Of a stretch of 13,700 bases of DNA, positions 794 through 13,700 are shown piece by piece (the stretch's first letter is position 1; every line of letters starts with the position of its first letter). Origin of the DNA: a virus. The position numbers and the translations under genes are program-made. The notes under the pieces were generated by a model, which was not told the DNA's origin, ran no database searches, and was given only the letters and a program-made list of their open reading frames with translations. The DNA is taken from the UHGV virus genome UHGV-1812412; one strand, written 5' to 3'.

Positions 794-824
794 CTTCTCC
801 GGTATCCTTTTGATGCGGGGCAAA

Positions 825-870: not shown

Positions 871-1227
871 TGCCGGAAGGTAAGTCAACTCCGGCCTATA
901 AACCTTAAAGCGACTATAAAATCGCCCCGCCAATTGTGATGATCCGACCTTTGAGGCGGGTCCGGTGCCCAGGGGGTGCAGTGATGCACAAACCAGGCAA
1001 CGATAAACAGGCTAACAGTGATAGCGGCGCTCAATCAGCGCACTAAATCCTAACCAGTCCGGGAAAGAGGCTGGCTCTATCGACCGCTCATGCACGGGAC
1101 AATGCATACCTGATAAAGGATTCTCACAAGGGACCAATCGCGAGAAAAGAAGTGGAAAGGGGCTGATTTGTGGTGTATCACTACGGCCTCAAAAGAACAC
1201 TATTGTCTTTTTTAAGCCGGACCGTGA

Positions 1228-1686
1228 TTAGCCTCTCCCCACATTTGACCAATATTTGATTGCACCGATCAAATCATCATAGTGGCGCATGGCATCATTG
1301 AAGCCTTTATAGCTTGCCCATTGTGGGGAAACCTTGTTATTGCTGAATTGCCCACTAATCAGGATAGTCTCCAAAATGTCGGCGTATCGCTTGCCAATTC
1401 GCTTTCTGACGGCCTCAGAGCTCCCACCCTTTACGATTGCATTAATCAGGGCTTTTGTGTGTCTCAGGCTCTCATAGAGCATTGCAGCGTGGGCAGATTC
1501 CATAAAGGAGCGCTTAGGCAGATCACCCCACCCCTCAGAATGAATTGCTGCCAGTGTGGCGTAATTCAGGCCGCTATAGTGCTTTCCGTCATCCCAGCCA
1601 ACCGCTACACCTTCCATCTGTGAGAGCTCTTTATGCAGCTTATCCATCATGCGCTTGTCTATGGTGCAACGGACTTTCGGACTCAT
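1228..1686 (-). CDS. Hypothetical phage-associated protein, 152 aa
   Basis: Intact ORF; its ATG (1686..1684) overlaps the stop of the upstream gene in an ATGA arrangement (translational coupling); GGAGA 7 nt upstream. No family recognised. Confidence 0.55.
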   Translation of the reverse strand: MSPKVRCTIDKRMMDKLHKELSQMEGVAVGWDDGKHYSGLNYATLAAIHSEGWGDLPKRSFMESAHAAMLYESLRHTKALINAIVKGGSSEAVRKRIGKRYADILETILISGQFSNNKVSPQWASYKGFNDAMRHYDDLIGAIKYWSNVGRG

Positions 1687-2513: not shown

Positions 2514-2645
2514 TTCATGGATTTGGCTAAAGCCAAACCTGCAAAAGATGCAGGCAAAATAGAACTTATCGTTGCCCTGCTTAAAATCTGCAGAAAATAC
2601 AGGGCAGTTATTCGTTAGAATCGCTTATAGCTCTTCCCGAGAGCG

Positions 2646-2897
2646 TTATTTTGCAAAACGGTTATGGGCATTCAGGGCTTTTTTGCGGTCCTGGGCTTGT
2701 TTGCGTGCAATAAAATGTTCGAAAGTCTCGGCCCAGGTGCATTTATTATATTCACGGTACTTATGCATAGCCTGGCGGCTAACGTCATAGCAGGCGGCAA
2801 ATGTGGAGATACGCAGAAATTCCGGCAGATCCTCGTCATCGATATGGATAATATCAAAAGGCACGTCGTCACGGTCGCCGTATAAAACAATTTTCAT
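2646..2897 (-). CDS. Small protein, 83 aa, possible helix-turn-helix DNA-binding protein
   Basis: ORF track starts at a GTG at 2906; the in-frame ATG at 2897 has GAGGTG 6 nt upstream. Segment ISTFAACYDVSRQAMHKY resembles an HTH. Function not established. Confidence 0.5.
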   Translation of the reverse strand: MKIVLYGDRDDVPFDIIHIDDEDLPEFLRISTFAACYDVSRQAMHKYREYNKCTWAETFEHFIARKQAQDRKKALNAHNRFAK

Positions 2898-2931
2898 AAA
2901 AGACACCTCAAAAACTTAAGACGGGGATAAT

Positions 2932-2980
2932 AAAAAAGGGAAGAGGGAAAGACCTATCCCCGATCTCTCACCTCTTCCCT
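2932..2980 (-). terminator. Rho-independent terminator immediately downstream of the capsid-like gene
   Basis: 9-bp stem GGGAAGAGG (2938-2946) / CCTCTTCCC (2971-2979) with a 24-nt loop; A6 at 2932-2937 on + gives a U-tract after the hairpin on the - strand. T-rich on the + side too (2980-2994), so possibly bidirectional. Confidence 0.6.
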
Positions 2981-3010
2981 TTGCTTTTATTTGGCCTTCG
3001 AAGAAGGACC

Positions 3011-4054
3011 TTATTTAGCCTTGGCTTTTGCCAGAGCAGCGGCGGCGGAGTTACTAACACTCACTTTAACCACAACCTCAGGCATCATGTTCATGAAAGC
3101 ATAAGAGGATTCAATGAAGATTTCTCGTTTACCTCTGGACTCTTCCATATACATGAAAGCTTCACGTGCAGCGCCGTTTGCAAGCTTCAGGTTGCGAGCG
3201 CAAGGGCCGAAAAATTGAGTATAAACGCCCACCATATCGCCTAACGCATGTGGCTGGAATTGTGGGACCAGATAAGCAGTATTCTCTGGCAGACTATCCA
3301 TTTGCACCACACGCAGAGCTAAGCCCGGAATGCGGAAGGTCGGGAAGCCCGGCAGAATATCCTCAGGGAACATCAGACCTTTATCGGTAATATTCTGATT
3401 GCCGAACAACAGCACTTTACGGAGCAGTTCATCAGTCTGAATAGCGGCGAACACCTCAGCACGGCAGAACAGGGTGAAACCACGCAGAGCGCGAACGACA
3501 CCACGCTGTTTAACCTTGCTCAGTGCAACCAGGTCCTGCAGTTGTTTGAGAATATCTTGAGCTAGATCCATTTCAGAGGTGGACTGTTCCACGCCCAGCA
3601 GTTCGCACACATTCAGCTCTTTACCCTTGGTGAGGATAATTTTGTTCTCAAAGAGAGCAAGCTGGCGTGCTTCTTCGTGGGTCTGGCGTAAGCCTTCGCC
3701 CAGTTGAATAACACGACGAGCGGTTACAGACTCTAAATTCTCTTCGGAATCTTTGCCCGGAACACGGATACCTTGCCAGTCAGAAGGATAAATAGCACTT
3801 GATGCGGCAGTGAATGCCATATCACCCGTGCCCGTTTCACGCTCATCTGCGGTAATGGTCGCCATCTGTTCACCGTAGCGCGGATACTGACCGAAAGCGG
3901 TTTGTTTCACCTGGCGAACTTTGTCATATTCAAATTTAAAGGTATTGCACAGAGCAGTAGTGTTGAAGATATCCATTGCTGAAATAATCTGGTTATCCAG
4001 CGGGATGTCTTTAATCAAGCCACACAGATCGCGGACTTCGAATTCTTTTTTCAT
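3011..4054 (-). CDS. Putative phage major capsid protein (lambda gpE-like), 347 aa
   Basis: Long ORF; ATG at 4054 with GGAGG 6 nt upstream (ORF track begins at a TTG at 4060). N-terminal MDIFNTTALCNTFKFEYD and C-terminal IESSYAFMNMMPEVVVKVSV resemble lambda gpE (TTAQLL...KFKFD; MIQSAPLMLLADPDEFVSV) as recalled from memory, not search-verified. Followed by a strong terminator, as expected for a highly expressed capsid gene. Confidence 0.55.
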   Translation of the reverse strand: MKKEFEVRDLCGLIKDIPLDNQIISAMDIFNTTALCNTFKFEYDKVRQVKQTAFGQYPRYGEQMATITADERETGTGDMAFTAASSAIYPSDWQGIRVPGKDSEENLESVTARRVIQLGEGLRQTHEEARQLALFENKIILTKGKELNVCELLGVEQSTSEMDLAQDILKQLQDLVALSKVKQRGVVRALRGFTLFCRAEVFAAIQTDELLRKVLLFGNQNITDKGLMFPEDILPGFPTFRIPGLALRVVQMDSLPENTAYLVPQFQPHALGDMVGVYTQFFGPCARNLKLANGAAREAFMYMEESRGKREIFIESSYAFMNMMPEVVVKVSVSNSAAAALAKAKAK

Positions 4055-4065
4055 CTCCAACCTCC

Positions 4066-4401
4066 TTATTGTGCAACACGCAAATCGCCATTGCTGGCAG
4101 CGATAACAGCGGCTAAGCCTTCTTTATCCACGTAGGCCGGATTGATATAACAGCCCTTGTTGGCAACAACGATAAAAGCATCACCAACCTCAGCACGTTC
4201 TACAACCAGCAGCGGAGTTTTATCGGTGTGCGTTTCTTTAACGAAGGTCTCAACCTCGCCAGCCTCAGTCACCACAACAACAGTGCCAGCCGGAATCTCA
4301 GCTTTAACTTTGTTTTTAATTTCAACGTCGCGAATACTAAATTGCTCATCTGCGGCGTATGAAATGATGTGTCCGCGTGTGCGGATAGTCATATCTCTCA
4401 T
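4066..4401 (-). CDS. Putative head decoration / capsid accessory protein, 111 aa
   Basis: ORF ends 11 nt before the capsid start; AGGTGA 6 nt upstream of its ATG. Size and position directly upstream of the capsid gene fit a decoration or cement protein. Function is by context only. Confidence 0.45.
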   Translation of the reverse strand: MRDMTIRTRGHIISYAADEQFSIRDVEIKNKVKAEIPAGTVVVVTEAGEVETFVKETHTDKTPLLVVERAEVGDAFIVVANKGCYINPAYVDKEGLAAVIAASNGDLRVAQ

Positions 4402-5215
4402 TTGATCACCTGCGATTTAAATTAACTCCCCTCAAAGAGTTCCGGTATAACCTCTCAAACCACGACGCTCGGGCCGAAAAGTTATGCCGGAAATCTAAAG
4501 GGAAATTGATACAAGGAGAGGGAGATAGCCCCGCACCGTCCAAGCGGGGGCTATTCCATATGGGGAAAACCAACAACAGTTGGCTGATAGTTCACAGTAT
4601 GGGTTACTAGAGAGCACTATCACGAAAGACACTCCCCCGAATCAGTTCAGGCTGCGGTCACATCAGCGGGGAAATACCTTTCGGGATAGCTACCCACACA
4701 GAAAACCCGCAAAAGAAAACTGTGTGGATAACTAGCCCAATAGGAGAATTAATCGACCACTCAACGATGATCAGGGTAGTGTTATTTATAAGGCGGCACC
4801 GCTACCTGGTCGCCTTTACTTTGGAGGAAAATACGGCAAATCAAGATCTTCTCACAATGATATTGACGCCATACTGTATATTATATCAGTATTTACTCAC
4901 ATTGTCAACACCCTGATTATATAAATTCTAATAATTAGCGTAGTAACGGTATTTTCAGACCTCTATCAATCCCATCAATACGTCACCCCACCCTTTAGAT
5001 GCATACATCCGACCTACTTTGTAGGCTTGGCGTACTGCCAAGGTCGCAGCTATGCGACTCCTATCTATCACCACTTTATAAAGCTTGATAGATATCCGTT
5101 GATCAATATCAATGTTTTCCGGGGATTTACCCGGCTATAGTTCGAATCAAGGAAGGGGAGCATTGATAGCACCCAACCGAGCAAACAAATCAACTTCTCG
5201 CAAAAGGTTATAGAT

Positions 5216-5338
5216 ATGGGTATCAAGAACAGTGCCAGCGCATGGCAAAAGGCCAGGTTTCATCACCCACACATGGTTAAGGCAATTGAGGTGGTTGGAG
5301 TTTTAGCCCTGATGTTAGCTCTGTGTGTGGAGGTGTGA
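5216..5338 (+). CDS. Micro-ORF, 40 aa, hydrophobic C-terminus (MGIKNSASAWQKARFHHPHMVKAIEVVGVLALMLALCVEV)
   Basis: ATG preceded by AAAGG 8 nt upstream inside a 17-nt leader motif that is duplicated before the membrane protein gene; its stop is 1 nt before the next ATG. Confidence 0.25.
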   Translation: MGIKNSASAWQKARFHHPHMVKAIEVVGVLALMLALCVEV

Positions 5339-5339
5339 G

Positions 5340-5420
5340 ATGGGCAAAGGAGGCAAAGCATTTTTAATAGGTCTGGCAGTCTTAGATTTTGTATTAATCA
5401 TCATTGAGCGGAGTTTATGA
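5340..5420 (+). CDS. Micro-ORF, 26 aa, single hydrophobic helix (MGKGGKAFLIGLAVLDFVLIIIERSL)
   Basis: ATG at 5340 with GGAGG 6 nt upstream; its stop overlaps the ATG of the following HTH gene (ATGA at 5417-5420). Confidence 0.25.
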   Translation: MGKGGKAFLIGLAVLDFVLIIIERSL

Positions 5421-5677
5421 CGGGAACTAAAGATATTAAGAGACTGAGGGAAGAGCTGATAGCTGAAATTAAAGCGAAGGCAAAGCAAATGGAGATAGCC
5501 GCACAAATGGATGTAGCGGAACAGATGTACAAGATGGTTGAGGAGGGAACGCCACGACAGGTTATAGCAAAAACCTTCGGTGTGGGGATCGCCACCGTGC
5601 ACAGAAGGCTGAAAGCCTATGCCGACTACCACAATATCGAGAGAAAGGAGGATGGGAGATTTAAGAAGAATAAATAG
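5417..5677 (+). CDS. Small DNA-binding protein with resolvase/invertase-type helix-turn-helix, 86 aa
   Basis: Segment TPRQVIAKTFGVGIATVHRRLK matches the pattern of the Hin/Gin-type C-terminal HTH (PRQ-LA-FG-G-ST--R, recalled from memory); N-terminal half predicted coiled coil. No catalytic recombinase domain present. Confidence 0.65.
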   Translation: MTGTKDIKRLREELIAEIKAKAKQMEIAAQMDVAEQMYKMVEEGTPRQVIAKTFGVGIATVHRRLKAYADYHNIERKEDGRFKKNK

Positions 5678-5769
5678 TGTGAACAGTCCAATAGGTTAAG
5701 CTCTGGCTCATAGCCCTCGCCTCGAGGGTGTTATTAACTAAATTCAACTTCTCGCAAAGGGGTACCATT

Positions 5770-6291
5770 ATGTTATTTCAGAAAGATAAAGAATCAGAAA
5801 ACAAAAAGCTTTTTAAAGCAATAGTAAAAATGTTCTTTCAGTACACTGCAGCGTTTTTGATAGCCGGGCCTTGGTTAATGGCTATCTGTTTTTACCCTGC
5901 TACCTTGTTTATTGGCAGTAGCAAGTTCGGCGATGGCCCGTTTCATGTGGATATTGGTTTTATAGATTCTCTCCTGATCCGTCCTATAAATGCTGTTCTC
6001 AATGCTTTCTACTTCCCCACTAGTCTAGAGGGGTGGTCGGTAACCTGGGGTGTTTTAGGCTTAGCATATGTATATTGGTTGGTTGGCTTTTTGTGGGGTG
6101 CAATCTGTGCTCTCCTCGATATTGATACAGGATCAAGCCGTAGGAGTGGTGGTAATAATAGCGGAGCGGGTGTATATGCACACGTAGGTACCAGAGGGGT
6201 AAGTATCACCGCAGGTACCCGATTCGCTGGCGGCTGGCTGAGCATAGGCAAACGCGGCGTTAGTTGGAGAAAAAGCAAAAAACTGTTCTGA
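5770..6291 (+). CDS. Membrane protein, 173 aa from ATG 5770, with at least two hydrophobic helices and a Gly-rich basic tail containing a repeated G-x-R-G-V-S motif
   Basis: ORF track starts at a GTG at 5728; the ATG at 5770 has AAGGGG 7 nt upstream. Hydrophobic helices FFQYTAAFLIAGPWLMAICFYPATLFI and WGVLGLAYVYWLVGFLWGAICALL; tail has GTRGVS and GKRGVS. Terminator directly downstream. Confidence 0.6.
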   Translation: MLFQKDKESENKKLFKAIVKMFFQYTAAFLIAGPWLMAICFYPATLFIGSSKFGDGPFHVDIGFIDSLLIRPINAVLNAFYFPTSLEGWSVTWGVLGLAYVYWLVGFLWGAICALLDIDTGSSRRSGGNNSGAGVYAHVGTRGVSITAGTRFAGGWLSIGKRGVSWRKSKKLF

Positions 6292-6298
6292 CCTACCA

Positions 6299-6322
6299 GG
6301 GGGGCCATCACGGCCCCTTTTT
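6299..6322 (+). terminator. Rho-independent terminator after the membrane protein gene
   Basis: GGGGCC (6301-6306) / GGCCCC (6312-6317) stem with 5-nt loop, followed by TTTTT (6318-6322). Confidence 0.7.
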
Positions 6323-7636
6323 ATTTATCCCTCAATTAACCCCTATTTATCCCCTATTTAATGCCTATTTATTGATTTAATCCGTTTTATGCCACAACCG
6401 CCCGGTTGACAGAGTAAGAGAGAGGGTGTAACCCTTTTTCGTAATACCAATAAAATCAATAGCTTAGCTCAATTGGCCTTTTCTCTGTTTTTGTCAAATT
6501 TAACATACCCTCAAAAACTGCAAAATCTGGCTGCAAGATTATCTGCAGCTGGATTTCTTACACCTCAATTTGTGGTATCACCCTGACTAGTTTGTGCATA
6601 AAATGAACAGTTTTTAACATTTCCTCCTCACCTGGTAACCACACAAAAAGCTAAAAACGAGGCACAGATAATCTTAGAGGCCTGTTTTCTTGTTATCACT
6701 CTGGGAACGTCGTAGAAGTGATTTTGATGAAAGACGGCCTACCCTATTACACCCCCATTTTTTGTTATCACAATTGCATCCTGTGCGGTATATGACTATG
6801 TGCTGAAAGCGGTCTCAGGTGTTGGTGTCAGAAATATCCATTAGCGGTATTTGAGCTTATGGGTAACTCGTCTGAGGTGCCAGGCAGGCGCTCCCCTACC
6901 TCCCCTTTTTCTTCTAACAATTCTCAAATATCACACCACTGCCCACCACGTTGCTATTATGTTAATTCTTAAGCTTTGCTGTATGTTGTGCACATTATTT
7001 ATTCAGATGCATGTACGTAAATTCTGTGCCCACTGATCATGATTTTTAAATCAGATTTTGTAGTGCGCTTTATTAGTGTAGATAAGATCTATTATGTTAA
7101 ATGCAATTTTCCCAACCCTTCAAATCAATGACTTACATGTAAGCATGCACTAACACCCCACACAGCACATTAGACGTGTAGATGTCTATATCCCACATTT
7201 TTGATTGTTTTGTAGTCATTCCCCTGATCATTTAACCAGTATAGTTTGCTCTCTGCAGACCACAAAATCGGAATTTACATCTGATTAACATAATCTGTTA
7301 GCATGATCACCATTACCCACACAACAATAACCCCATGCAAGCCTCTTCAGGCAATTTATCGGCGTGTTGGTGTGAACAGTCTTTCATGTTCTTTATGTAT
7401 TCATGACTGCAAGGAATGTATTCATTGGCCTGTGTGGGGGAAGGATGGACTGCCTCAGGGGCCATACTTATGATGCCCGGTCAACATAGCTGTTGATAAA
7501 ATCAATGGGTGTTGATCTGCGTATTTCCCACACATGAGAGGAAATCAAAGCAAAGAGAGAGGAGAGAGGTTTGTTAGTCAAAATAGGTCAATTGACGGCT
7601 AATACAGAGTAAAAAATCAGATGCAATCACTCCCCC

Positions 7637-7819
7637 ACCTGTTGGGATTTCCCTCACCTGTATAAGAATACAGTCATACTTTCCCGTTATACGGTCATAC
7701 ACATGATGGAATAACCTGTTGGAATTTCCCACAGGTTCAACCATACATAAGCATTAACCTGTTGGAATTTCCTACTACTACCTGTCGGTATTTCCCACAG
7801 GTACCTGTTGGAATTTCCC
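7637..7819. repeat. Iteron array: five direct copies of a 17-mer ACCTGTYGGWATTTCCC
   Basis: Copies at 7637-7653, 7714-7730, 7757-7772, 7780-7796, 7803-7819; the last three are exactly 23 bp apart. Two copies are followed by the inverse ACAGGT. Partial copies of the ATTTCCCACA core at 7522-7534 and 8321-8333. Confidence 0.75.
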
Positions 7820-7911
7820 ACACTAATAGATAAAGAGAATAGATTAATAAAAAGATACCCCCCTAACCCCCCAGGGGGAATGGGGAGGGATCAGAGAGTG
7901 GGGAAGGTTTT

Positions 7912-8014
7912 CTAGATGTACGTAATTGGTACACTTAAAGGTGGATAATATGAGGCTAGATGTACGTAATTGGTACACTTAGAATATTCTAGATGTACGT
8001 AATTGGTACACTTA
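7912..8014. repeat. Three identical 26-bp direct repeats CTAGATGTACGTAATTGGTACACTTA, each with an internal dyad TGTAC-N7-GTACA
   Basis: Copies at 7912-7937, 7956-7981, 7989-8014; start-to-start spacing 44 and 33 bp (multiples of about 11, same helical face). A near DnaA box GGTGGATAA lies at 7940-7948. Confidence 0.8.
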
Positions 8015-8339
8015 AATCACATAAGTTATTGAGTTTATTAGAAAAAGTGATTCACCTATATATACTACTGATTCGCCTCCGCTCATCATTAGTATGGTGT
8101 AACTGATTCATGCTTCGCTTACGCTCACATTCATCTACTTACACCCCCTTATCTGAATTGAACATTCCCGTCCAATCCAGCTAAGAGAATTGATTGAACA
8201 TTACCTAACATCCGTTAGCTAACATTCTAATCAATTAACTACTTAATCACTTCCACACCTTCCGGTGGTGCCAAGTGTCCTGGCATGGTGGGAAAAGATT
8301 CTGCCGTTTTAGGTAGAATTGATTTCCCACAAATAGTAA

Positions 8340-8660
8340 GTGTCGGCCCTTCAATGTCACTCTCCTATGAGGGGGAGAGATGACGGGCCTCCTGTGTGGG
8401 TGAGTATCGGAGCAGTCTGTGAAGTATGAGCAGGCTGTGAGATACGCTACTGTATATCTGCGTAGAACAGCCTCCGCTGTTTACGCTCTTTGTGTGGGTC
8501 CGGCGAATGCGACAGCATGAGGCCCACATGTGGACCGCTGCCGAAAGCTTGCCAGCGCCGGAAGGAGGCGGCAAAGAGTCTCCCGCGCGGTTGTAGGTCC
8601 GCGCCGGACTTTAACTTACAGTTAAACCCTTCGGGCTTGTGCGGGTGCACGCACACATAT
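8340..8660. other. GC-rich, hairpin-dense non-coding island, candidate structured RNA or DNA processing site
   Basis: Sharp rise in GC relative to AT-rich flanks. Local stems include TCTCC/GGAGA (8361-8379), GCGCGG/CCGCGC (8585-8604), TTTAAC/GTTAAA (8609-8625) and GTGCG/CGCAC (8639-8654). The only ORFs are two overlapping Arg/Pro/Ser-rich minus-strand frames without RBS. Confidence 0.3.
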
Positions 8661-8843
8661 ATATAAAGGATACACTCATAAATCGAAAATAAGCGCGATT
8701 TTAGCGCCTACAGCGAGATAAACTATACTCCCTAGTGTAATTGCATTACCTGATGCTTAAATCGCGTTGTAGGGCCTCTCATGAGGTTTGAGTTTAACAC
8801 CCTCCAAAGTTTTAACAAAAAGTGCTCTCCCTCCATTGTGGGC

Positions 8844-9013
8844 CATTGACAATCTTATTGCATAAATGCTATAAGTTATTCTGATTTTGACACGGTAGGG
8901 GCCATTAATAATGCTTACCCCTTTGCTGTGGACTTGCTTGTGTCTGCTGTGCAGGCTATGGCACCTATAGCTCGCCTAAATGATAATGATTCCTATTGAC
9001 AATTGGTTGTCAA
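8844..9013 (+). promoter_or_regulatory. Operator-like 9-bp palindromes ATTGACAAT overlapping -35-like TTGACA hexamers; candidate tandem promoters
   Basis: ATTGACAAT at 8844-8852 and 8995-9003; the second is part of an 18-bp dyad TTGACAA-TTGG-TTGTCAA (8996-9013). Possible promoters: TTGACA 8846-8851 + 18 nt + TATAAG 8870-8875; TTGACA 8996-9001 + 17 nt + TAAGAT 9019-9024. Confidence 0.4.
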
Positions 9014-9059
9014 TATGATAAGATTATAGATAGTGGGAGAAACAGATCCGGAGGTCAAC

Positions 9060-9209
9060 GTGGAACTGAGCGACGCTATAGCGATCATCAACCTGGCTGT
9101 ACTGTGGTGCGGTGTTGCCTACATAGCCGGAGTAACTGCAATCGACAACCTTGAAGAAAAAATGATAGATAAATACAAAAAGATTGTTGACAATCTCGCA
9201 AATAGCTGA
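9060..9209 (+). CDS. Small hydrophobic protein, 49 aa, GTG start
   Basis: GGAGG at 9050-9054, 5 nt before the GTG at 9060; product MELSDAIAIINLAVLWCGVAYIAGVTAIDNLEEKMIDKYKKIVDNLANS has one predicted transmembrane helix. Not in the supplied ORF track (below the length cutoff). Confidence 0.35.
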   Translation: MELSDAIAIINLAVLWCGVAYIAGVTAIDNLEEKMIDKYKKIVDNLANS

Positions 9210-9215
9210 TAAAAT
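9182..9215 (+). promoter_or_regulatory. Sigma70-type promoter with an operator dyad over the -35
   Basis: -35 TTGACA (9187-9192), 17-nt spacer, -10 TAAAAT (9210-9215); dyad GATTGT-TG-ACAATC (9182-9195) overlaps the -35 and shares the TTGACAAT core with the upstream palindromes. Confidence 0.5.
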
Positions 9216-9263
9216 ATAAATCATAGGGTAATTCTCAGCATGTGAATTTTCCTTAAACAGACT

Positions 9264-9295
9264 AGCGGGGCTTGTCTTGAGTCCCGTTTCTTTTT
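9264..9295 (+). terminator. Promoter-proximal hairpin plus U-tract (attenuator or 3' end of a short RNA)
   Basis: CGGGGC (9266-9271) pairs with GTCCCG (9281-9286), with one G-U pair, around a 9-nt loop, followed by TTTCTTTTT (9287-9295). Sits about 50 nt after the predicted start site and 44 nt before the next ATG. Confidence 0.5.
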
Positions 9296-9338
9296 AAACC
9301 TACATCGCACAGGCGGTGAGCCAACAGGAGATTGAATC

Positions 9339-9548
9339 ATGGCTAAAACTGGACCGATCAGCCAGCTGGTAGACTGGACTACTGACGAAATCGTCGAGAA
9401 CGTGCTTAAAGGTAACTTTCGAAAAACTTCTGTTTATGCATTTATTCGAAAACACAAAGGAGAATATCCACACATTGAAGCGGCAATAGAAAAACTTAAC
9501 TTTATTAAACTTGAGCGCCAGCTGGAAAGATATAAACACCTACTTTGA
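9339..9548 (+). CDS. Small protein, 69 aa, possibly DNA-binding
   Basis: AGGAG at 9326-9330, 8 nt before the ATG; first gene after the promoter/attenuator. No family recognised. Confidence 0.6.
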   Translation: MAKTGPISQLVDWTTDEIVENVLKGNFRKTSVYAFIRKHKGEYPHIEAAIEKLNFIKLERQLERYKHLL

Positions 9549-9584
9549 TAAAAGGTAACCGTAACCCGGTAAGAGGTAAACATT

Positions 9585-10454
9585 ATGAATATTAAGTCTG
9601 TTTTTAATATAACTTTAAATGATGATCCTAGTATCCTTTTGCTGCCTATGCTCATAAACAAATCTGGACTATTAAAAAAAGGCGACGCAAGGGATATTTA
9701 TATTTATATGTGGAATATTTACTATCTCAACGCTAAAAAAGAGGCCGCCAAGGTGTTCAGTAAGAAGACTAAAGGAAGAAGCCTCAGTCAGGATATGAAA
9801 GATTCCATAAGAAAAGAATGTTTTGCAATTAATGATAAAGATTCCTGTGTGGAAATCTCTTATAAGGATATAGAGGAAAGAGTAGGAATATTACGACCAC
9901 ACGCAGTAAGGGCAATTAAAAAGCTGGAATCTGAAGGAATTATCACCTGCCTTAAAAAAGGCAATAAGCATAACCCTTATGCATCATGGCAAATTAATGT
10001 CGGAATCTTTGAAATGATGGAAAGAGTAGGGATTGAAAACCTCATTGGGTGGGATCTCTTAAAACCATATTGGAAGAAAGAACAGGAAGCAGCCGGAAGA
10101 GGGGAGGGGGATAAAGCCCCGCAAGAAGCCCCAAAACAGGCCGCACAGCAAGCTAAAAAGGCCGAGGTGGTGCAGTTCCCTTCTACGAAAGATAAGAGCG
10201 TCAGAATCGAGCGTAGCTCTCATCCTGAAAGTGTGACAACGTCACCTGTTAAGACAAACAATGAAGGGCCAGTGAAAGAGATACCCAAAATTATAGACAT
10301 TTCTTCTTTTATGGCAGATGAGGAAGATATGCAAGATGAGTGGTGGACACCTCCAGAAAATAATGATTATGGTTATGATCCTTATGGCTATGATGAAGAT
10401 GAATATAGCCCGTTTGAAGATGAATATATAAATGATTCCGCTATCCCTTATTAA
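9585..10454 (+). CDS. Winged-helix DNA-binding protein, 289 aa, with a Lys/Ala/Gln-rich linker and an acidic, aromatic C-terminal tail; candidate replication initiator or regulator
   Basis: AAGAGGT 7 nt before the ATG. Segment ISYKDIEERVGILRPHAVRAIKKLESEGIITC has the classic winged-helix pattern seen in replication initiators and MarR-like regulators; C-terminus DEEDMQDEWWTPPENNDYGYDPYGYDEDEYSPFEDEY. Function inferred. Confidence 0.75.
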   Translation: MNIKSVFNITLNDDPSILLLPMLINKSGLLKKGDARDIYIYMWNIYYLNAKKEAAKVFSKKTKGRSLSQDMKDSIRKECFAINDKDSCVEISYKDIEERVGILRPHAVRAIKKLESEGIITCLKKGNKHNPYASWQINVGIFEMMERVGIENLIGWDLLKPYWKKEQEAAGRGEGDKAPQEAPKQAAQQAKKAEVVQFPSTKDKSVRIERSSHPESVTTSPVKTNNEGPVKEIPKIIDISSFMADEEDMQDEWWTPPENNDYGYDPYGYDEDEYSPFEDEYINDSAIPY

Positions 10455-10542
10455 TACCCCCAAATAAACTAAATAAACTAAACATAGAATTACTAGAACT
10501 AGATTGATTGCCCTGATCTTTTAAACGTTCGGAGAATTAATC

Positions 10543-11028
10543 ATGTTCAAATCTGATCTTTCTGATTCCCAATTTGAAAAACTGGTAGCACTGCAGAAAT
10601 ATCTCCCCAGTGATGATCAACCAACACGACAGGCCAAACACTTATTAGTCGAGGGCTTTACCCCTGAATTCGTAGCGGAATATACAGGCGTTAAACTTGA
10701 GAAAGTCCAAAAACTATATAATGAGTCCTGGAATCCACGGTGTCGAGTTCCCCTCAGTGTCTATAACGAAATAGATAGAGATAAAAATGTCTTCGAAGAT
10801 CGCCGCCGCAAATCTCTTTTAATGTGGAATTGCGGGATGAATATTGAAGAGATAGCAAAAGAATTAAAAGTAACCTGCTTTCATATTTGGGGCTTGTTGA
10901 GTGAAATCCTGCCACGTAAGGAGCTTAATCAACGTTTGCCTAAGCCCGGTAGTCGTGCTTATCGCGAATTTATATTCATCTACCGCCGCCATAGCAATAA
11001 AGTCCGGAAAGCAATGCAGCGCAAATAG
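10543..11028 (+). CDS. Hypothetical protein, 161 aa, with two HTH-like segments and a basic C-terminus
   Basis: GGAGA 7 nt before the ATG; HTH-like segments FTPEFVAEYTGVKLEKVQKLY and MNIEEIAKELKVTCFHIWGLL. Could be a small terminase subunit-like or regulatory protein; not resolved. Confidence 0.7.
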   Translation: MFKSDLSDSQFEKLVALQKYLPSDDQPTRQAKHLLVEGFTPEFVAEYTGVKLEKVQKLYNESWNPRCRVPLSVYNEIDRDKNVFEDRRRKSLLMWNCGMNIEEIAKELKVTCFHIWGLLSEILPRKELNQRLPKPGSRAYREFIFIYRRHSNKVRKAMQRK

Positions 11029-11116
11029 CTTATAGCCTTCACATATGCCGCAAGTTATTGATTCTGCCGTCCGGTAAATATGCCGGATGGCTCATATAAA
11101 TTTTAAGGAATTCCAA

Positions 11117-11560
11117 ATGTCTCAAATCGCTAAATTACTATCCCAGGTTATCAAAGCTATCGACGCTGAAGATTCAAAAGTTCGCCAGGATCTTTTAGAT
11201 GGCAAGTTTACCAATACTCTGGCATTTACCCGTGACAAAGAGCACTTCTTAGAGCACAAACATCCCGCCTTTGTTGAATGCAAGTCCGCTAATGGTGATG
11301 TTTTCTATGTCGATTTGGTGGTTATGGCTATGCGCCTGTGGATGATTCAGGACCTTATGCGCCAACACGGTGATGATCCTCTTATCAGCATGTGGAACAG
11401 CGCCCAGGATGGCTTTGTGATTGCTGCCTTATCCAAATCCATGATTGAGGCAGAAGGCGCAAGCCTTCAAAACATGGCAGATCTCTTTGAAATAAGCGTA
11501 GGAATGATGCAGACCATGCTGCAGGCGGTGAAGCCTCTCAAGCTGGTTAACCTTGAATAA
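11117..11560 (+). CDS. Hypothetical protein, 147 aa
   Basis: ORF track begins at an ATG at 11087 with no RBS; the in-frame ATG at 11117 has AAGGAA 6 nt upstream. Followed by a terminator. Confidence 0.65.
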   Translation: MSQIAKLLSQVIKAIDAEDSKVRQDLLDGKFTNTLAFTRDKEHFLEHKHPAFVECKSANGDVFYVDLVVMAMRLWMIQDLMRQHGDDPLISMWNSAQDGFVIAALSKSMIEAEGASLQNMADLFEISVGMMQTMLQAVKPLKLVNLE

Positions 11561-11571
11561 TTGATTAATAA

Positions 11572-11606
11572 GCACCCTCAAAAAATGGGGGTGCCTTTAT
11601 TTATCT
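11572..11606 (+). terminator. Rho-independent terminator
   Basis: GCACCC (11572-11577) / GGGTGC (11589-11594) stem followed by the T-rich run CTTTATTTATCTT. Confidence 0.6.
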
Positions 11607-11638
11607 TACTTTTCACGTTTATCTAAAAGGATATGCCT

Positions 11639-12022
11639 ATGAATATTGAAGAAATGATAGTTGAATTCGATGATGGTGATTTCCTGGAAGATGGGGAGTT
11701 TAAATACTCCCGTTTTAAACAGGCGTTATTTAGCAGCGATGATAAACCCCACGTTAGTGATCTAAATGACGATGATTTATGTCGCTGGGTATGCACCCGC
11801 TTATATGAGGATGGAAAATATACAGGCCAAAACTTTCCAAATCTCTATTTCAAAGCACAAACATTTGAGGAAGGGCAAAGAGTGAAAAACCTGGTCGATA
11901 AAATGCTGTCAGCCGGATATTTGCATAAAGAATTATTAAATCCTAAAGCTGAAAGCAAGCGCCATTATATTTTTGTGTGGACTATTGGCGATAAGTGTCC
12001 ACTAAGACGCAAAGGCAAATGA
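11639..12022 (+). CDS. Acidic protein, 127 aa, in the position of a tail assembly chaperone
   Basis: ATG at 11639 has AAGGA 8 nt upstream (the ATG at 11633 is too close to it). Product is strongly acidic at the N-terminus; sits two genes upstream of the tape measure gene, as gpG-like chaperones do. Inferred from position and composition. Confidence 0.55.
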   Translation: MNIEEMIVEFDDGDFLEDGEFKYSRFKQALFSSDDKPHVSDLNDDDLCRWVCTRLYEDGKYTGQNFPNLYFKAQTFEEGQRVKNLVDKMLSAGYLHKELLNPKAESKRHYIFVWTIGDKCPLRRKGK

Positions 12023-12023
12023 T

Positions 12024-12209
12024 ATGAATACCTACGAAAAGATTTATCAAAAATTAAAAAGTGATAACAATGCTCCCGTCATCAAGGGCGGGGCTTCTTC
12101 CTCTGGTGACCTCTCAATCGAAGAGCTTGCGGAGAAATATAATATTGATAAAGAGGCCCTGAAAAGGGCTATTTCATTATCAAAATCTTTAAGACAGGGC
12201 GAGGTGTAA
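12024..12209 (+). CDS. Small protein, 61 aa, immediately upstream of the tape measure gene
   Basis: ATG 1 nt after the stop of the preceding gene (TGA-t-ATG); ends 3 nt before the tape measure ATG. Could be independent or the extension part of a frameshifted chaperone. Confidence 0.45.
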   Translation: MNTYEKIYQKLKSDNNAPVIKGGASSSGDLSIEELAEKYNIDKEALKRAISLSKSLRQGEV

Positions 12210-12212
12210 GAG

Positions 12213-13700
12213 ATGGCAATGAAGGAAGTCGCCAGACTAACAAACGTTATTTACTGGGATTCTGATAAATCCAGCTGGCGAAAAGAAGTTAAACGGCTTG
12301 AGGATTATAAAAAATCCTGGAAGAAAGCCACCGACGATATAGCTAAAGCTGATTTTAAATCTAATCAGGCTGTGCTCAGAACACAAAGAACACGCGCTAA
12401 GGTGGAAGAGCAGATTGCCAGAGCTCAGAGGAAACAACAGGAAGCACAGAAGAAACAACGTGCTCAGGCTGTCAGCCGTCTGACCGGGGGCAACAATGCC
12501 GAACTTAACTCTATGCGCAAGTTCTATCAGCAGCAAGCCAGAGAGGCCGCCAGACAACAAAAACTGTTAGATCGTAGTGTTGGAGATGTTCAGCACAGAA
12601 AAGCACGTGTAGGGGCCAACAGTGCACGAATTAGCGGCATGTTTGATGGCTCTATCGTCTCCCAGTTCCAGGGGCGCATTCAAAGAGTTAATGCTGATTA
12701 TGCTAAAGGGGCTATAAACCTGCAGACCTATAATCAGAGGATGGCTCGGCTCAGAGCTGAAATGAAGATGGCAACAGCAGAGGCCGGAAAATTTCAGAGC
12801 AGACTGGATAAACTGGCATCAGGTGCCAGCAAGGTGCATGACAACCTGGGCAAAATCAACTCCACACTAGGCAAGATAGCCATTGGCCTTACTGCCGCTG
12901 GCTGGGGTGTTCAGCGTGCTGTTAGTGGTGCTATGGGTAGCCTTGCAGATCGCAACAGTGCCTACTTCGGTTTAATGGCTCAGAACAAGGATGATAAAGC
13001 CAAGACTGATCAGCAGATGGCTTTTATCAAGAACACAGCCTACACCTATGGGATGGATGAGCGGGAGATGCAAGGGGGCTACATGCGCTTTGCTGCAGCT
13101 ACTCCCACCATGAAGGAATCTGATAAGCAGGCTCTTTTTGAGGCTATGGCTATTAAAGGTCGCTCAGTGGGTGCTACTGGCGAGCAACAGAACAGGGCGC
13201 TTGTTGCGGTCCAACAAATGGCTTCAAAGGGAAAAGTTATGGCAGAAGAGCTGCGGGGCCAACTGTCAGAAGCCTTTGCAGGCTCACAACAGGATTTTCA
13301 ACAGGCCGCTATTGATGCCGGAATCATCAAGAATGCCCAGGAATTCGATAAAGCCCTTAAAGATGGCAAAATCACCCTGGACAAACTTCTTCCTTCTCTG
13401 GTGAAAATCTGGGGTGCAGCAAAAGAAACTAAAGCTTTTGCTGAATCCATGAAACAACCGGAAGTAGCACTGCAGCGCATGAAAAACAGCTTTAACGAGC
13501 TGGCGATTCAGTTTATGGGTGTTGTGGATCCTGCGGATGGCGTTATTAGCTTATCTGAATCTCTGATCTCCATCTTCGAAGACCTCACCACTGATATGGA
13601 CGGCAGCGGGAGCGCGGCAAAACAGTTCGGTGAGGCAGTCGGGGCTGCCATGCGTGAGATCATGTATTGGGTAGGCTTCGCTAAGGGATATATTGAGGTC
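12213..13700 (+). CDS. Partial CDS (3' end outside window): N-terminal part of a phage tail tape measure protein
   Basis: ATG at 12213 with GAGGTG 7 nt upstream; frame stays open to the window edge (496 codons). Missing from the supplied ORF track because it has no stop in the window. Coiled-coil N-terminus, then NRALVAVQQMASKGKVMAEELRGQLSEAF, which matches the conserved tape-measure domain pattern. Confidence 0.8.
   Translation, partial: MAMKEVARLTNVIYWDSDKSSWRKEVKRLEDYKKSWKKATDDIAKADFKSNQAVLRTQRTRAKVEEQIARAQRKQQEAQKKQRAQAVSRLTGGNNAELNSMRKFYQQQAREAARQQKLLDRSVGDVQHRKARVGANSARISGMFDGSIVSQFQGRIQRVNADYAKGAINLQTYNQRMARLRAEMKMATAEAGKFQSRLDKLASGASKVHDNLGKINSTLGKIAIGLTAAGWGVQRAVSGAMGSLADRNSAYFGLMAQNKDDKAKTDQQMAFIKNTAYTYGMDEREMQGGYMRFAAATPTMKESDKQALFEAMAIKGRSVGATGEQQNRALVAVQQMASKGKVMAEELRGQLSEAFAGSQQDFQQAAIDAGIIKNAQEFDKALKDGKITLDKLLPSLVKIWGAAKETKAFAESMKQPEVALQRMKNSFNELAIQFMGVVDPADGVISLSESLISIFEDLTTDMDGSGSAAKQFGEAVGAAMREIMYWVGFAKGYIEV

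What the first reader, a model, noticed from the sequence alone, without database searches (positions are those of the whole stretch)
6292..9338. Three kilobases with no credible ORF in any frame, dense with repeats and dyads
Bacterial and phage DNA is normally about 90 percent coding. Here about 3 kb between two terminators and a promoter has only short, low-complexity ORFs, yet it is highly ordered: iterons, phased repeats, homopolymer runs, a GC-rich island and operator palindromes. That looks like a replication or partition origin plus regulatory RNA region, or the decayed remains of genes.
Basis: seen in the sequence. Interest (0 to 1): 0.7.

Follow-up and report, generated by a model that had tools for sequence, protein, structure and literature searches.

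The report
Replication-control region of a phage-satellite plasmid
The 3 kb gene-free stretch is real. It is best read as the replication origin and control region of a small E. coli plasmid that looks like an undescribed parasite (satellite) of rV5-like phages, and it includes an array of conserved hairpins that the plasmid shares with those phages.

Summary
No ORF above 69 aa lies in 6292-9338, and the same 2.5-3 kb gap is present in all 15 related elements examined. One correction: a 49-aa gene (9060-9209) is real, so the gene-free span is 6292-9059. There is no sign of decayed genes.

The window is a whole 13.7 kb circular E. coli plasmid. It carries a capsid gene, plus tape-measure and tail-tube-initiator genes related to those of rV5-like phages (Vequintavirus).

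The gap contains:
- two iteron sets (5x23 bp and 3x30 bp), each followed by an AT-rich stretch;
- a C/G-run box;
- an array of hairpin modules separated by the linker TGTGTGGG;
- three tandem TTGACA promoters and a leader terminator in front of the rep operon.

Iteron type co-varies with the winged-helix DNA-binding part of the adjacent Rep protein, not with its C-terminal half. The window's own Rep type always comes with the 3x30-nt set. The hairpin stems co-vary (98/98 cells paired). Two modules are about 86% identical to an unannotated intergenic region of all 119 Vequintavirus genomes, which itself looks like the phage origin.

Unresolved: whether the hairpins act as RNA or DNA, and what a strongly constrained 210-nt core (6492-6700) does. 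The closest analogue is the non-coding origin region of Vibrio PLE satellites.

The parts
6298..6320 (+). Intrinsic terminator closing the upstream 187-aa membrane-protein gene (5728-6291)
   Evidence: 9-bp stem with 6 GC pairs, followed by a T-run.
6322..6383 (.). Phased about-11-bp repeats (TATTTATCCC-like). They lie in a zone that evolves neutrally and tolerates indels.
   Evidence: repeat family and coordinates. Relatives carry 58-75 nt insertions here. Variable-column fraction is 0.35, similar to synonymous sites.
6492..6700 (.). Strongly constrained non-coding core of unknown cis or RNA function. It contains a 13-bp-arm dyad (6523-6556) and a relaxed DnaA box (6593-6601).
   Evidence: Variable-column fraction is 0.057, against 0.31 at codon position 3 and 0.05-0.07 at positions 1-2. 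It is the only part of the 1.3 kb block with a conserved-structure signal (z about -3.5 on both strands). The DnaA-like box was found. No conserved small ORF has a coding pattern.
7041..7440 (.). Moderately constrained non-coding block of unknown function. It carries invariant CCCACACA sites at 7157 and 7316.
   Evidence: Variable-column fraction is 0.14. There is no conserved RNA structure. The motif sites are invariant in 9/9 relatives.
7637..7825 (.). Five 23-bp imperfect palindromes (ACCTGTTGGAATTTCCCACAGGT; 'type A' iterons). They are the cognate sites of a Rep N-domain type that this window does not encode, so here they are an orphan or secondary iteron set.
   Evidence: repeat family. 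The same set is present in L001 and L003. Iteron type tracks the N-terminal about 140 aa of Rep in 10 relatives: within-type identity 0.8-0.93 against 0.3-0.7 between types. The window's own Rep belongs to a different group.
7823..7857 (.). Conserved AT-rich box directly after the 23-bp iterons. It is a candidate DNA-unwinding element.
   Evidence: conserved in all relatives. It is among the AT-richest 40-nt windows of the element (0.78).
7858..7907 (.). C/G-run box (C6..C6 G5..G4 G3..G4). The C and G runs can pair, giving a terminator-like hairpin on the minus strand, and the G runs fit a G-quadruplex pattern.
   Evidence: minus-strand terminator-like hairpin at 7879-7858. It is conserved in all relatives. 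The G-quadruplex reading is inference from the sequence.
7910..8016 (.). Three 30-nt iterons (TTCTAGATGTACGTAATTGGTACACTTAAA; spacing 44 and 33 nt). They are the cognate binding sites of the window's own Rep-like protein.
   Evidence: repeat family. The module is present in 5/5 elements with window-type Rep and in 0/10 with other Rep types, always with identical spacing. The repeat sequence switches together with 11 fixed substitutions in the recognition helix and wing of Rep, residues 93-139.
8016..8075 (.). AT-rich stretch directly after the 30-nt iterons. It is the most likely unwinding site of the active origin.
   Evidence: AT fraction is 0.80 in 40-nt windows. It is shared with L002.
8076..8341 (.). 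Spacer belonging to the window-type replicon module. Its function is unknown, and it ends in TTTCCCACAAAT.
   Evidence: It is present only in elements with window-type Rep.
8342..8400 (+). Hairpin module 1 (rV5-like nested hairpin) plus linker TGTGTGGG
   Evidence: It is about 85% identical to the rV5 intergenic region. Two compensatory stem changes separate plasmid from phage: GTCA/TGAC becomes GGCA/TGCC, and CTCTCC/GGAGAG becomes CTCGCC/GGCGAG.
8401..8498 (+). Hairpin module M2 plus linker TGTGTGGG. It ends in a boxA-like CGCTCTTT.
   Evidence: module also present in L002, L008, L013. The boxA resemblance is recalled from memory and was not tested.
8499..8645 (+). Terminal module B (rV5-like), two extra small hairpins and the linker variant TGTGCGGG
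   Evidence: homology to rV5. The closing stem has 3 compensatory pairs between plasmid and phage copies plus G.U wobbles on the + strand, and it encloses a 25-nt segment that is invariant between plasmids and phages.
8646..8749 (.). Tail module of the array, with a minus-strand terminator-like hairpin (8711-8689) and the palindrome GTGTAATTGCATTAC (8735-8749)
8846..9215 (+). Three tandem promoter units beginning TTGACAAT: P1 8846-8876, P2 8996-9024 with operator dyad TTGACAATTGGTTGTCAA, and P3 9187-9215. They drive g49 and the rep operon.
   Evidence: P2 10/12 and P3 11/12 matches, both with an extended -10 TG. (the repeated unit is also in L002). This part is conserved among relatives.
9060..9209 (+). 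Real small gene g49 (49 aa, hydrophobic N-terminus) inside the reported 'ORF-free' interval
   Evidence: It is annotated in relatives as WP_157794903. It has a coding signature of 0.10/0.08/0.33. A GGAGG Shine-Dalgarno sequence lies 6 nt upstream of the GTG start.
9264..9288 (+). Intrinsic terminator in the leader between P3 and the first rep-operon gene (g69, 9339). It could act as an attenuator or define a short leader RNA.
   Evidence: 11-bp stem followed by a T-run. The regulatory role is inference.
9585..10454 (+). Rep-like initiator (289 aa, winged helix at about residues 83-140, acidic C-terminal tail). It lies outside the finding but is the trans-acting partner of the iterons.
   Evidence: PHROG 'replication initiation O-like' at 3e-5. 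HTH_36 in 10/10 relatives' Reps, GntR in 8/10, DnaD_N and Phage_rep_O in 4/10 each. Co-variation with the iterons.

Best explanation
The gene-free 2.8 kb is the replication origin and replication-control region of a 13.7 kb circular plasmid. The plasmid behaves like a plasmid-resident satellite of rV5-like (Vequintavirus) phages.

Shown:
- The region holds arrays of initiator-binding repeats (iterons), each followed by an AT-rich stretch.
- The repeat type co-evolves with the winged-helix DNA-binding part of the Rep-like protein encoded just downstream.
- This window carries two such sets. The 3x30-nt set (7910-8016) matches its own Rep. The 5x23-bp set (7637-7825) matches a Rep type found in relatives.
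- Downstream lies an array of small hairpins separated by the linker TGTGTGGG. The stems are kept by compensatory changes. Two of the modules are shared with an intergenic region of all Vequintavirus genomes, and that region has the layout of an origin.
- Three tandem promoters with an operator dyad, a 49-aa gene and a leader terminator precede the rep operon.

Inferred:
- Rep dimers bind the iterons and open the adjacent AT-rich DNA for plasmid maintenance by host enzymes.
- The promoter, operator and terminator unit sets the Rep level and so the copy number.
- The phage-like hairpin array is the part recognised by the helper phage's replication machinery (priming or helicase loading on unwound DNA) or by its transcription or packaging machinery. 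This would let the plasmid be amplified or mobilised when an rV5-like phage infects.
- Iteron and Rep-domain swapping reflects incompatibility or helper counter-attack, as in PLE satellites.

The role of the constrained 210-nt core (6492-6700) is not explained.
For: - Gap conserved as non-coding: it is present in all relatives, with no coding signature.
- Iterons and flanking AT-rich DNA.
- Rep N-terminal about 140 aa tracks the 23-bp iteron type, with within-type identity 0.8-0.93 against 0.3-0.7 between types. The C-terminal half does not track it.
- The 3x30-nt module is in 5/5 elements with window-type Rep and in 0/10 others, always at 44/33 spacing. The two repeat sequences correlate with 11 fixed differences confined to the recognition helix and wing.
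- Rep is a winged-helix protein with weak lambda-O, DnaD_N and HTH_36 signals.
- Hairpin covariation: 98/98 cells paired, 8/14 pairs compensatory, 0/500 shuffles reach the observed values, and slid controls pair at 14-48%. Module B's stem has 3 compensatory pairs between plasmid and phage copies.
- Homology to an unannotated intergenic region in 119/119 Vequintavirus records.
- That phage region has 2-4 x 21-bp repeats and the AT-richest 60 nt of the first 100 kb. It lies 1.5-2 kb from the GC-skew minimum and from the point where transcription diverges. The rV5 paper left the origin undefined (PMC3606486).
- Helper link: the tail-tube initiator is 51% identical and the tape measure 27% identical to the Vequintavirus proteins.
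- Promoters and terminator.
- Same logic in PLE satellites: a non-coding region with three about-30-bp semi-palindromic iterons, a RepA N-domain that co-varies with the origin, and module swapping (PMC7145576, PMC8263062).
Against: - No experiment supports any of this. Replication function is inferred from co-variation and layout.
- Rep family assignment is weak, with all HMM hits below curated thresholds or marginal. Rep has no phage homologue by tblastn.
- No DnaA box lies next to either iteron set. There is only a relaxed one at 6593 and a perfect one in the other gap at 4723.
- An origin accounts for perhaps 0.5-1 kb, not for 2.8 kb. The 1.3 kb left block is unexplained.
- The phage region being an origin is itself an inference, because skew in rV5 follows transcription direction.
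- Satellite behaviour (helper dependence, packaging) is untested.
- The window's iteron region shows no significant similarity to the phage region upstream of the hairpins.
- The 23-bp set persists intact without a cognate Rep in this window, which 'relic' does not fully explain.
Confidence: 0.62

Rival explanations
1. The hairpin array (about 8340-8735), and its counterpart in rV5-like phages, is transcribed from the + strand into a multi-hairpin non-coding RNA. The UGUGUGGG linkers would be protein-binding, processing or antitermination sites. The RNA would regulate replication (as a primer or antisense copy control), sense or interfere with the helper phage, or act as a decoy. The iterons would still be the origin.
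For: - The stems are kept by compensatory change.
- G.U wobbles appear on the + strand in module B.
- The + strand of 8325-8625 folds better than shuffles (z -4.6) and better than the minus strand (z -3.7).
- In rV5 the region sits among RNA-repair genes and upstream of the tRNA cluster.
- Modules are gained, lost and duplicated as in fast-evolving specificity determinants.
Against: - No Rfam family matches in the window or the phage locus.
- No convincing promoter lies upstream of the array (and reading of the sequence).
- The three-hairpin modules show 0 G.U pairs in 98 cells, which is unusual for RNA and expected for DNA hairpins.
- Stable GNRA and UNCG tetraloops are not enriched on either strand when counted formally.
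- One relative carries an inverted module copy.
Confidence: 0.25
2. The phage-like hairpin segment is a packaging signal (a pac-site mimic). It would be recognised by the helper phage's terminase so that plasmid concatemers are packaged, as P4 and cos-type islands copy their helper's cos site.
For: - It is the only stretch of nucleotide similarity between the plasmid and rV5-like phages.
- A 25-nt core is invariant between the two.
- In rV5 the region lies at the start of the leftward block that runs into the terminase and structural genes.
- rV5 is circularly permuted, which implies headful packaging from a pac site.
- No terminase gene is recognisable in the plasmid.
Against: - In rV5 the region is about 4 kb and a tRNA cluster away from the terminase gene.
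- It has iterons and the AT-richest DNA of the region, which fit an origin better.
- About half of the plasmid relatives carry module D instead of the rV5-like module B, and most lack module 1. A required helper pac site should be universal.
Confidence: 0.12
3. Part of the gap, especially the conserved left block with its dispersed invariant CCCACACA/TGTGTGGG sites, is a partition (centromere-like) or global regulatory site array. It would be bound by one of the element's small HTH proteins.
For: - The 8-mer occurs 9-10 times against 0.4 expected, almost only in non-coding DNA and in both orientations, including the other gap.
- The dispersed sites are invariant in 9/9 relatives.
- The element encodes several small HTH proteins of unknown role.
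Against: - No ParA/ParB/ParM-type gene was detected.
- The flanks of the sites are nearly as conserved as the sites themselves.
- The same linker occurs in the phage region, which is hard to explain by a plasmid-specific partition protein.
Confidence: 0.1
4. The gap is the decayed remnant of protein-coding genes.
For: The only support is the general expectation of about 90% coding density in phage and plasmid DNA.
Against: - The gap is present at the same place in every relative.
- No 3-base periodicity is seen, and indels are 1, 10, 11 and 13 nt.
- Six-frame translations hit no Pfam family.
- The ORFs are not conserved.
- No intact homologous gene was found in plasmid, phage or E. coli collections.
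Confidence: 0.02

Closest known systems
Non-coding region (NCR), origin and RepA replicon module of Vibrio cholerae PLE satellites of phage ICP1 (Barth et al. 2020, PMC7145576; Barth et al. 2021, PMC8263062)
   Same: - A large non-coding region in a small phage-parasitic element carries several repeat families.
- The origin consists of three about-30-bp semi-palindromic iterons.
[quoted passage not shown]
- Replicon modules have been swapped repeatedly among relatives.
- The helper is a virulent myovirus.
   Different: - The initiator is not a detectable RepA_N protein.
- The element is an autonomous plasmid with no integrase, not a chromosomal island.
- It encodes its own capsid, tape-measure and tail-tube-initiator proteins.
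- It carries two iteron sets plus a hairpin array homologous to helper non-coding DNA, a feature I did not find in the PLE papers read here.
Iteron-controlled theta replicons (pSC101, F, P1, R6K, RK2) and the lambda ori/O system
   Same: - Tandem initiator-binding repeats lie beside an AT-rich unwinding stretch.
- A winged-helix initiator is encoded in cis.
- Promoter and operator control of rep is present.
- Extra iteron sets could act in copy control or incompatibility.
   Different: - No adjacent DnaA boxes are present.
- The iterons are long imperfect palindromes (23-30 bp) rather than 17-22 bp asymmetric repeats.
- The iterons lie 1.6-1.9 kb upstream of rep, not inside it as in lambda or immediately next to it.
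- Sequence membership in the Rep_3 or O families is weak.
IncQ (RSF1010) oriV
   Same: The elements come in a similar order: iterons, then adjacent AT-rich and GC-rich stretches, then conserved hairpins next to a single-stranded motif. In RSF1010 these hairpins are the ssiA/ssiB priming signals (recalled from established knowledge).
   Different: - No RepB' primase or RepA helicase genes were found.
- There are many hairpin modules of several types instead of two ssi sites.
- A priming function is untested.
- There is no sequence similarity.
Satellite phage P4 (helper P2)
   Same: A roughly 11-14 kb element can live as a plasmid and depends on a helper for virion parts. It shares a short helper-derived cis element with the helper, and it has a non-coding RNA-based control region.
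   Different: No cos-type similarity, no alpha primase-helicase, no integrase and no CI-RNA-like family were detected. The putative helper here is a virulent 137 kb myovirus.

Membership tests
Iteron-type plasmid/phage replication origin | Tandem direct repeats (iterons) of about 17-30 bp | tested here: met
   There are 5x23 nt at 7637-7825 and 3x30 nt at 7910-8016. Equivalent arrays are present in all relatives.
Iteron-type plasmid/phage replication origin | AT-rich unwinding stretch adjacent to the iterons | tested here: met
   7823-7857 and 8016-8075 are among the AT-richest 40-nt windows of the element.
Iteron-type plasmid/phage replication origin | Cognate initiator whose DNA-binding domain matches the iterons | tested here: met
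   Co-variation is confined to the winged-helix part of Rep, and the module is present or absent according to Rep type in 5/5 and 0/10 elements. This is comparative evidence, not binding data.
Iteron-type plasmid/phage replication origin | DnaA boxes next to the iterons (typical of enterobacterial iteron plasmids) | tested here: not met
   Only a relaxed box at 6593 and a perfect box at 4723 were found. Both are more than 1 kb from the iterons.
Iteron-type plasmid/phage replication origin | Supports autonomous replication with Rep supplied | not testable with these tools
   This needs a minimal-replicon experiment.
PLE-type satellite replicon (NCR origin + RepA_N) | Non-coding region with several repeat types, including three about-30-bp semi-palindromic iterons | tested here: met
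   compared with the PLE description.
PLE-type satellite replicon (NCR origin + RepA_N) | Initiator belongs to the RepA_N family | tested here: not met
   Pfam scans of 11 Rep variants and PDB sequence searches give no RepA_N hit. Hits are to HTH_36, GntR, DnaD_N and Phage_rep_O. A fold comparison was not done.
PLE-type satellite replicon (NCR origin + RepA_N) | Chromosomally integrated island with an integrase, excised on helper infection | tested here: not met
   All 10 matches in 5,426 complete E. coli genomes are on plasmids and none on chromosomes. No integrase was found.
Phage satellite (general) | Carries some helper-related virion genes or cis sites but lacks a full virion, packaging and lysis gene set | tested here: met
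   The tail-tube initiator is 51% and the tape measure 27% identical to the Vequintavirus proteins. About 260 nt of helper-like non-coding DNA is shared. Only 15-17 genes are present, with no recognisable terminase, portal, sheath, tube or lysis genes.
Phage satellite (general) | Mobilisation depends on a helper phage | not testable with these tools
   This needs infection and transduction experiments.
IncQ-type oriV with ssi priming hairpins | Conserved hairpins beside the unwinding region that serve as primase entry sites, together with a dedicated primase | tested here: inconclusive
   Hairpins are present and under selection. No RepB'-like primase gene was found. Function is untested.
Any curated RNA family (Rfam 15) | Covariance-model match at or near the gathering score | tested here: not met
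   No match falls inside the gap at E<=1. Only a spurious rli43 hit appears in the phage locus. No tRNA or tmRNA was found.

The most novel reading that the evidence does not exclude
These 13-14 kb E. coli plasmids are an undescribed class of phage satellite that lives as a plasmid and parasitises virulent rV5-like myoviruses. The hairpin array punctuated by TGTGTGGG, shared between satellite and helper, would be a new kind of cis element (either RNA or single-stranded DNA). Through it the helper's replication, transcription or packaging machinery would recognise the satellite. The array's modular turnover, together with the swapping of iteron and Rep-domain modules, would record an arms race with the helper.
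Probability: 0.35. Interest if true: 0.8.

Novelty: new variant of a known kind. Interest (0 to 1): 0.62.

Why it matters
If this reading is right, the region gives a worked example, from sequence alone, of how a small phage parasite organises its replication control. It pairs interchangeable iteron and initiator-domain modules with a piece of helper-like non-coding DNA. It also points to the still-unmapped replication origin of rV5-like phages, which are widely used in phage therapy and biocontrol. And it flags a plasmid family, present in about 0.1% of complete E. coli genomes, that may interfere with or ride on those phages. The hairpin array with a fixed 8-nt linker is a defined, testable element with no assigned function.

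Tried and rejected
- Rfam scans of the window and the phage locus found nothing relevant, and the tRNA/tmRNA scan was empty.
- Six-frame translations against Pfam gave no domain remnants. The small-ORF conservation scan found none with a coding pattern apart from g49.
- A single large structured RNA across the 1.3 kb left block is rejected. RNAalifold z is about 0 except at 6444-6643.
- My first impression that the left block is 'more conserved than genes' was corrected with a fair baseline. Overall it sits between synonymous and non-synonymous sites, and only 6492-6700 is strongly constrained.
- Whole-protein Rep identity does not track iteron type. Domain-wise analysis resolved this.
- The search for distant relatives failed. 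The capsid protein is absent from IMG/VR, and its family is E. coli-only at 81% identity or above.
- An exact-pattern scan for module B in IMG/VR found only one rV5-like contig.
- A three-linker pattern scan gave 46 hits, but the 16 loci I inspected were unrelated CRISPR arrays or simple tandem repeats.
- Similarity between the window's iterons, AT region or spacer and the upstream half of the rV5 intergenic region is not significant (z <= 1.6).
- Enrichment of GNRA or UNCG tetraloops on the + strand as evidence for RNA is not supported when counted formally.
- TGTGTGGG is not a general rV5 promoter or signal. It is only mildly enriched genome-wide, 10 against about 3 in 100 kb.
- The association of module B/D with the type of the 187-aa protein holds in 11/12 elements and is too weak to build on.
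- rV5 ORF79 against the Rep N-domain gives the same kind of winged helix, but HHalign probability is only 16%.
- Literature searches for this plasmid family or for a Vequintavirus satellite found nothing.

Full report
WHAT THE WINDOW IS. The 13,700-base window is a complete, circularly permuted copy of a small circular E. coli plasmid. Megablast finds 13.2-13.7 kb plasmids that are 91-95% identical over 73-89% of the window. These include pE275a_13, CP020521, CP074841, CP178698, AP045055, CP134895 and CP148565, plus a 39.6 kb record holding three copies. The family is rare, occurring in 7 of 5,426 complete E. coli genomes, and is always extrachromosomal. The genes are a major capsid protein (PHROG 29; almost an orphan), a tape-measure protein, a Dit-like 'tail tube initiator', several small HTH proteins and a 289-aa Rep-like protein. 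The tail-tube initiator is 51% identical, and the tape measure 27% identical over 87% of the N-terminal 496 aa queried, to the proteins of rV5-like phages of the genus Vequintavirus. The capsid family is restricted to E. coli, is at least 81% identical throughout, and sits mostly on 13.4-14.3 kb contigs. I found no publication describing these elements.

CHECK OF THE OBSERVATION. No ORF longer than 69 aa lies in 6292-9338. The 23-nt (x5) and 30-nt (x3) repeat families, the dyads and the GC-rich island are all present. The hexamer CCCACA/TGTGGG occurs 13 times in the gap against about 1 expected, and the 8-mer TGTGTGGG/CCCACACA occurs 9-10 times in the window against 0.4 expected. The gap is left unannotated in all eight annotated relatives and is present in the further contigs I retrieved. 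One correction applies. A 49-aa gene at 9060-9209 is annotated in relatives and evolves like a gene, with variable-column fractions of 0.10/0.08/0.33 at codon positions 1/2/3. The truly gene-free span is therefore 6292-9059.

NOT DECAYED GENES. Across ten aligned elements the left 1.35 kb shows no 3-base periodicity of substitutions. It also carries indels of 1, 10, 11 and 13 nt. The largest ORFs in the window are intact in only 1 of 10 relatives, and no small ORF has a convincing coding pattern. Six-frame translations hit no Pfam family. No collection holds an intact gene at this position.

HOW CONSTRAINED IS IT. Measured against the same ten sequences, the genes have variable-column fractions of 0.073, 0.046 and 0.309 at codon positions 1, 2 and 3. 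The block 6292-7640 has 0.197. Its edges (6292-6491 and 7441-7640) are at about 0.35, which is neutral, and 6701-7040 is at 0.185. The stretch 7041-7440 is at 0.14. A 210-nt core (6492-6700) is at 0.057, as constrained as protein-coding positions. RNAalifold in sliding windows with column-shuffled controls gives z about 0 everywhere except 6444-6643 (z about -3.5 on both strands), around a 13-bp-arm dyad at 6523-6556. The left block is therefore not one large structured RNA. The function of its constrained core remains unknown.

THE ITERONS AND THEIR PROTEIN. Every relative carries, at the position of 7590-7830, an assortment of 20-23 bp imperfect palindromes. They share the plan ACC-N4-5-AAnATTT-N4-5-GGT but differ in their specificity bases. 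Each assortment ends in 3-4 tandem copies directly before a conserved AT-rich box and a C/G-run box. The Rep-like proteins are highly diverse (30-93% identity) and mosaic, and whole-protein identity does not follow iteron type. Domain-wise analysis gives a clear result. In ten relatives the N-terminal about 140 residues, the winged helix, are 0.8-0.93 identical within an iteron type and 0.3-0.7 between types. The C-terminal half shows no difference.

The window and L002 carry a third Rep type. Both have an extra module after the C/G box, made of three 30-nt repeats at 44/33-nt spacing followed by a shared AT-rich stretch. I retrieved more elements with this Rep type. All five with the gap available carry the module at identical spacing, and none of the ten with other Rep types do. 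Two repeat sequences occur, CTAGATGTACGTAATTGGTACAC and TATCAACATATCAAnnnGATATAC. They correlate with 11 fixed Rep substitutions confined to residues 93-139, in the recognition helix and wing. Residues 1-92 and 140-240 have none.

This is the pattern expected of a cognate initiator and iteron pair. It identifies 7910-8075 as the likely active origin of this window. The 23-bp set, identical to that of L001 and L003 whose Rep N-domains match it, is an orphan or secondary set here. Rep itself gives weak matches to lambda-O-like PHROGs, HTH_36, GntR, DnaD_N and Phage_rep_O. It gives none to RepA_N or to any solved initiator by sequence.

THE HAIRPIN ARRAY AND THE PHAGE LINK. A distant BLAST of the gap against phages found one thing. 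Window positions about 8333-8589 are about 86% identical to an unannotated 643-nt intergenic region present in all 119 Vequintavirus records. In rV5 this lies between ORF79, a GntR-like winged-helix protein, and ORF77. Splitting the plasmids' variable cassette at the recurring linker TGTGTGGG shows an array. It starts with a leader hairpin, continues with 0-3 small modules of four types, then a large terminal module (B, rV5-like, or D) and a tail module. Modules are gained, lost, duplicated and, in one relative, inverted.

For the three-hairpin module, 98 of 98 cells form Watson-Crick pairs and 8 of 14 pairs show compensatory double changes. No shuffle of 500 reaches the observed values, and slid controls pair at only 14-48%. 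Module B's closing stem has three compensatory pairs between plasmid and phage copies, and it encloses 25 nt that are invariant between them. Module 1 shows two compensatory changes between plasmid and phage.

RNA OR DNA. Whether the hairpins act in RNA or in DNA is unresolved.
- For RNA: the + strand folds better than shuffles (z -4.6), and a few G.U pairs occur on the + strand.
- For DNA: the small modules have no G.U pairs at all, stable tetraloop classes show no strand bias, no convincing upstream promoter is present, and Rfam finds nothing.

THE PHAGE REGION LOOKS LIKE AN ORIGIN. The rV5 intergenic region has 2-4 copies of a 21-bp palindromic repeat next to the ORF79 gene. These are followed by about 45 nt of extremely AT-rich DNA, then dyads and the hairpin modules. 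It holds the AT-richest 60-nt window of the first 100 kb (85% AT at 65,011). It lies 1.5-2 kb from the cumulative GC-skew minimum (about 67 kb) and from the point where transcription diverges (66.7 kb). The rV5 genome paper reported the skew change at 66,675-66,725 but left the origin undefined, and it describes the genome as circularly permuted (PMC3606486). The plasmid region has the same order: iterons, AT-rich DNA, hairpin array. Nucleotide homology is limited to the hairpin modules, since the iteron and AT parts show no significant similarity. ORF79 aligns with the Rep N-domain only weakly (HHalign E 0.002, probability 16%).

THE RIGHT END. Three tandem promoter units begin with TTGACAAT. 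P1 is at 8846. P2 is at 8996 and overlaps the dyad TTGACAATTGGTTGTCAA. P3 is at 9187. They precede g49 and the rep operon. An intrinsic terminator (9264-9288) lies between P3 and the first gene of the operon, g69 at 9339. Minus-strand terminator-like hairpins at 8711-8689 and 7879-7858 would stop transcription from running leftward into the origin. I infer that this is the copy-number control unit.

BEST EXPLANATION AND COMPARISON. The region is the origin and replication-control region of a plasmid-resident, satellite-like element.

The closest known system is the non-coding region of Vibrio PLE satellites of phage ICP1. That region has several repeat types and three about-30-bp semi-palindromic iterons. 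[quoted passage not shown] The element here is not a member of that family. Its Rep is not a detectable RepA_N protein, it has no integrase, and it is a plasmid.

The order iterons, AT/GC stretches, hairpins also recalls IncQ oriV with its ssi priming hairpins. That resemblance is from established knowledge and was not tested here.

What is not covered by any known system is the modular hairpin array with a fixed 8-nt linker, shared between the plasmid and its presumed helper. The strongly constrained 210-nt core is also unexplained.

VERDICT. The finding is real and orderly. The origin reading is well supported by comparative evidence. The pseudogene reading is rejected. The RNA reading stays open for about 400 nt. 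About 1.3 kb is only partly explained.

Noticed in passing
window 1-13700 (whole element): The window is a complete 13.7 kb circular plasmid. It encodes a near-orphan major capsid protein, plus tape-measure and tail-tube-initiator proteins related to rV5-like phages, but has no recognisable terminase, portal, sheath, tube or lysis genes. It looks like an undescribed plasmid-borne satellite of Vequintavirus. Family members are 13.2-14.3 kb, about one tenth of the helper genome (about 137 kb).
   Followed up: partly
window 4402-5416: A second gene-free gap of about 1 kb lies upstream of the capsid operon. It contains a perfect sigma-70 promoter on the minus strand (4908-4880, 12/12 matches with TG), a perfect DnaA box (4723-4731) and two invariant CCCACACA sites (4693, 5266). 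The capsid operon would have a leader of about 470 nt.
   Followed up: partly
L009 3711-4353 (rV5 DQ832317 64,665-65,307): An unannotated 643-nt intergenic region is conserved at 88-100% in all 119 Vequintavirus genomes. It holds 2-4 x 21-bp palindromic repeats beside a GntR-like gene (ORF79), the AT-richest DNA of the first 100 kb, and conserved hairpins. It is a candidate for the unmapped phage origin. A short ORF (ORF78) annotated there is probably spurious.
   Followed up: partly
window 10300-10451 (C-terminus of the Rep-like protein): The window-type Rep ends in a long acidic tail, ...DEDEYSPFEDEYINDSAIPY. The acidic run ending in I-P-Y resembles the C-terminal tip of E. coli SSB (...DDDIPF), which recruits replication proteins. 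This resemblance is recalled from memory and was not tested.
   Followed up: no
NZ_CP043822.1 (39,610 bp plasmid; hits H4, H10): This record contains three places matching the element and is about three unit lengths long. It is either a trimeric plasmid or an assembly concatemer.
   Followed up: no
L007 gap, about 40-100 nt after the G-rich box (CP134895): One relative carries an inverted copy of a three-hairpin module with its linkers, next to the normal array.
   Followed up: partly
window 5728-6291 versus 8499-8590, across relatives: The type of the 187-aa membrane protein upstream of the gap agrees with the type of terminal hairpin module (B or D) in 11 of 12 elements. The iteron zone between them recombines freely. 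This could be linkage or a functional pairing.
   Followed up: partly
window 9187-9295: Promoter P3 lies inside the 3' end of g49 and is followed about 50 nt later by an intrinsic terminator, before the rep operon. This could give a short leader RNA of about 70 nt or an attenuator.
   Followed up: no
relatives' Rep-like proteins (alignment A3), residues about 150-300: The C-terminal half of Rep comes in two unrelated versions that assort independently of the N-domain and of iteron type. I found no partner that it co-varies with. It may contact different host or helper replication proteins.
   Followed up: partly
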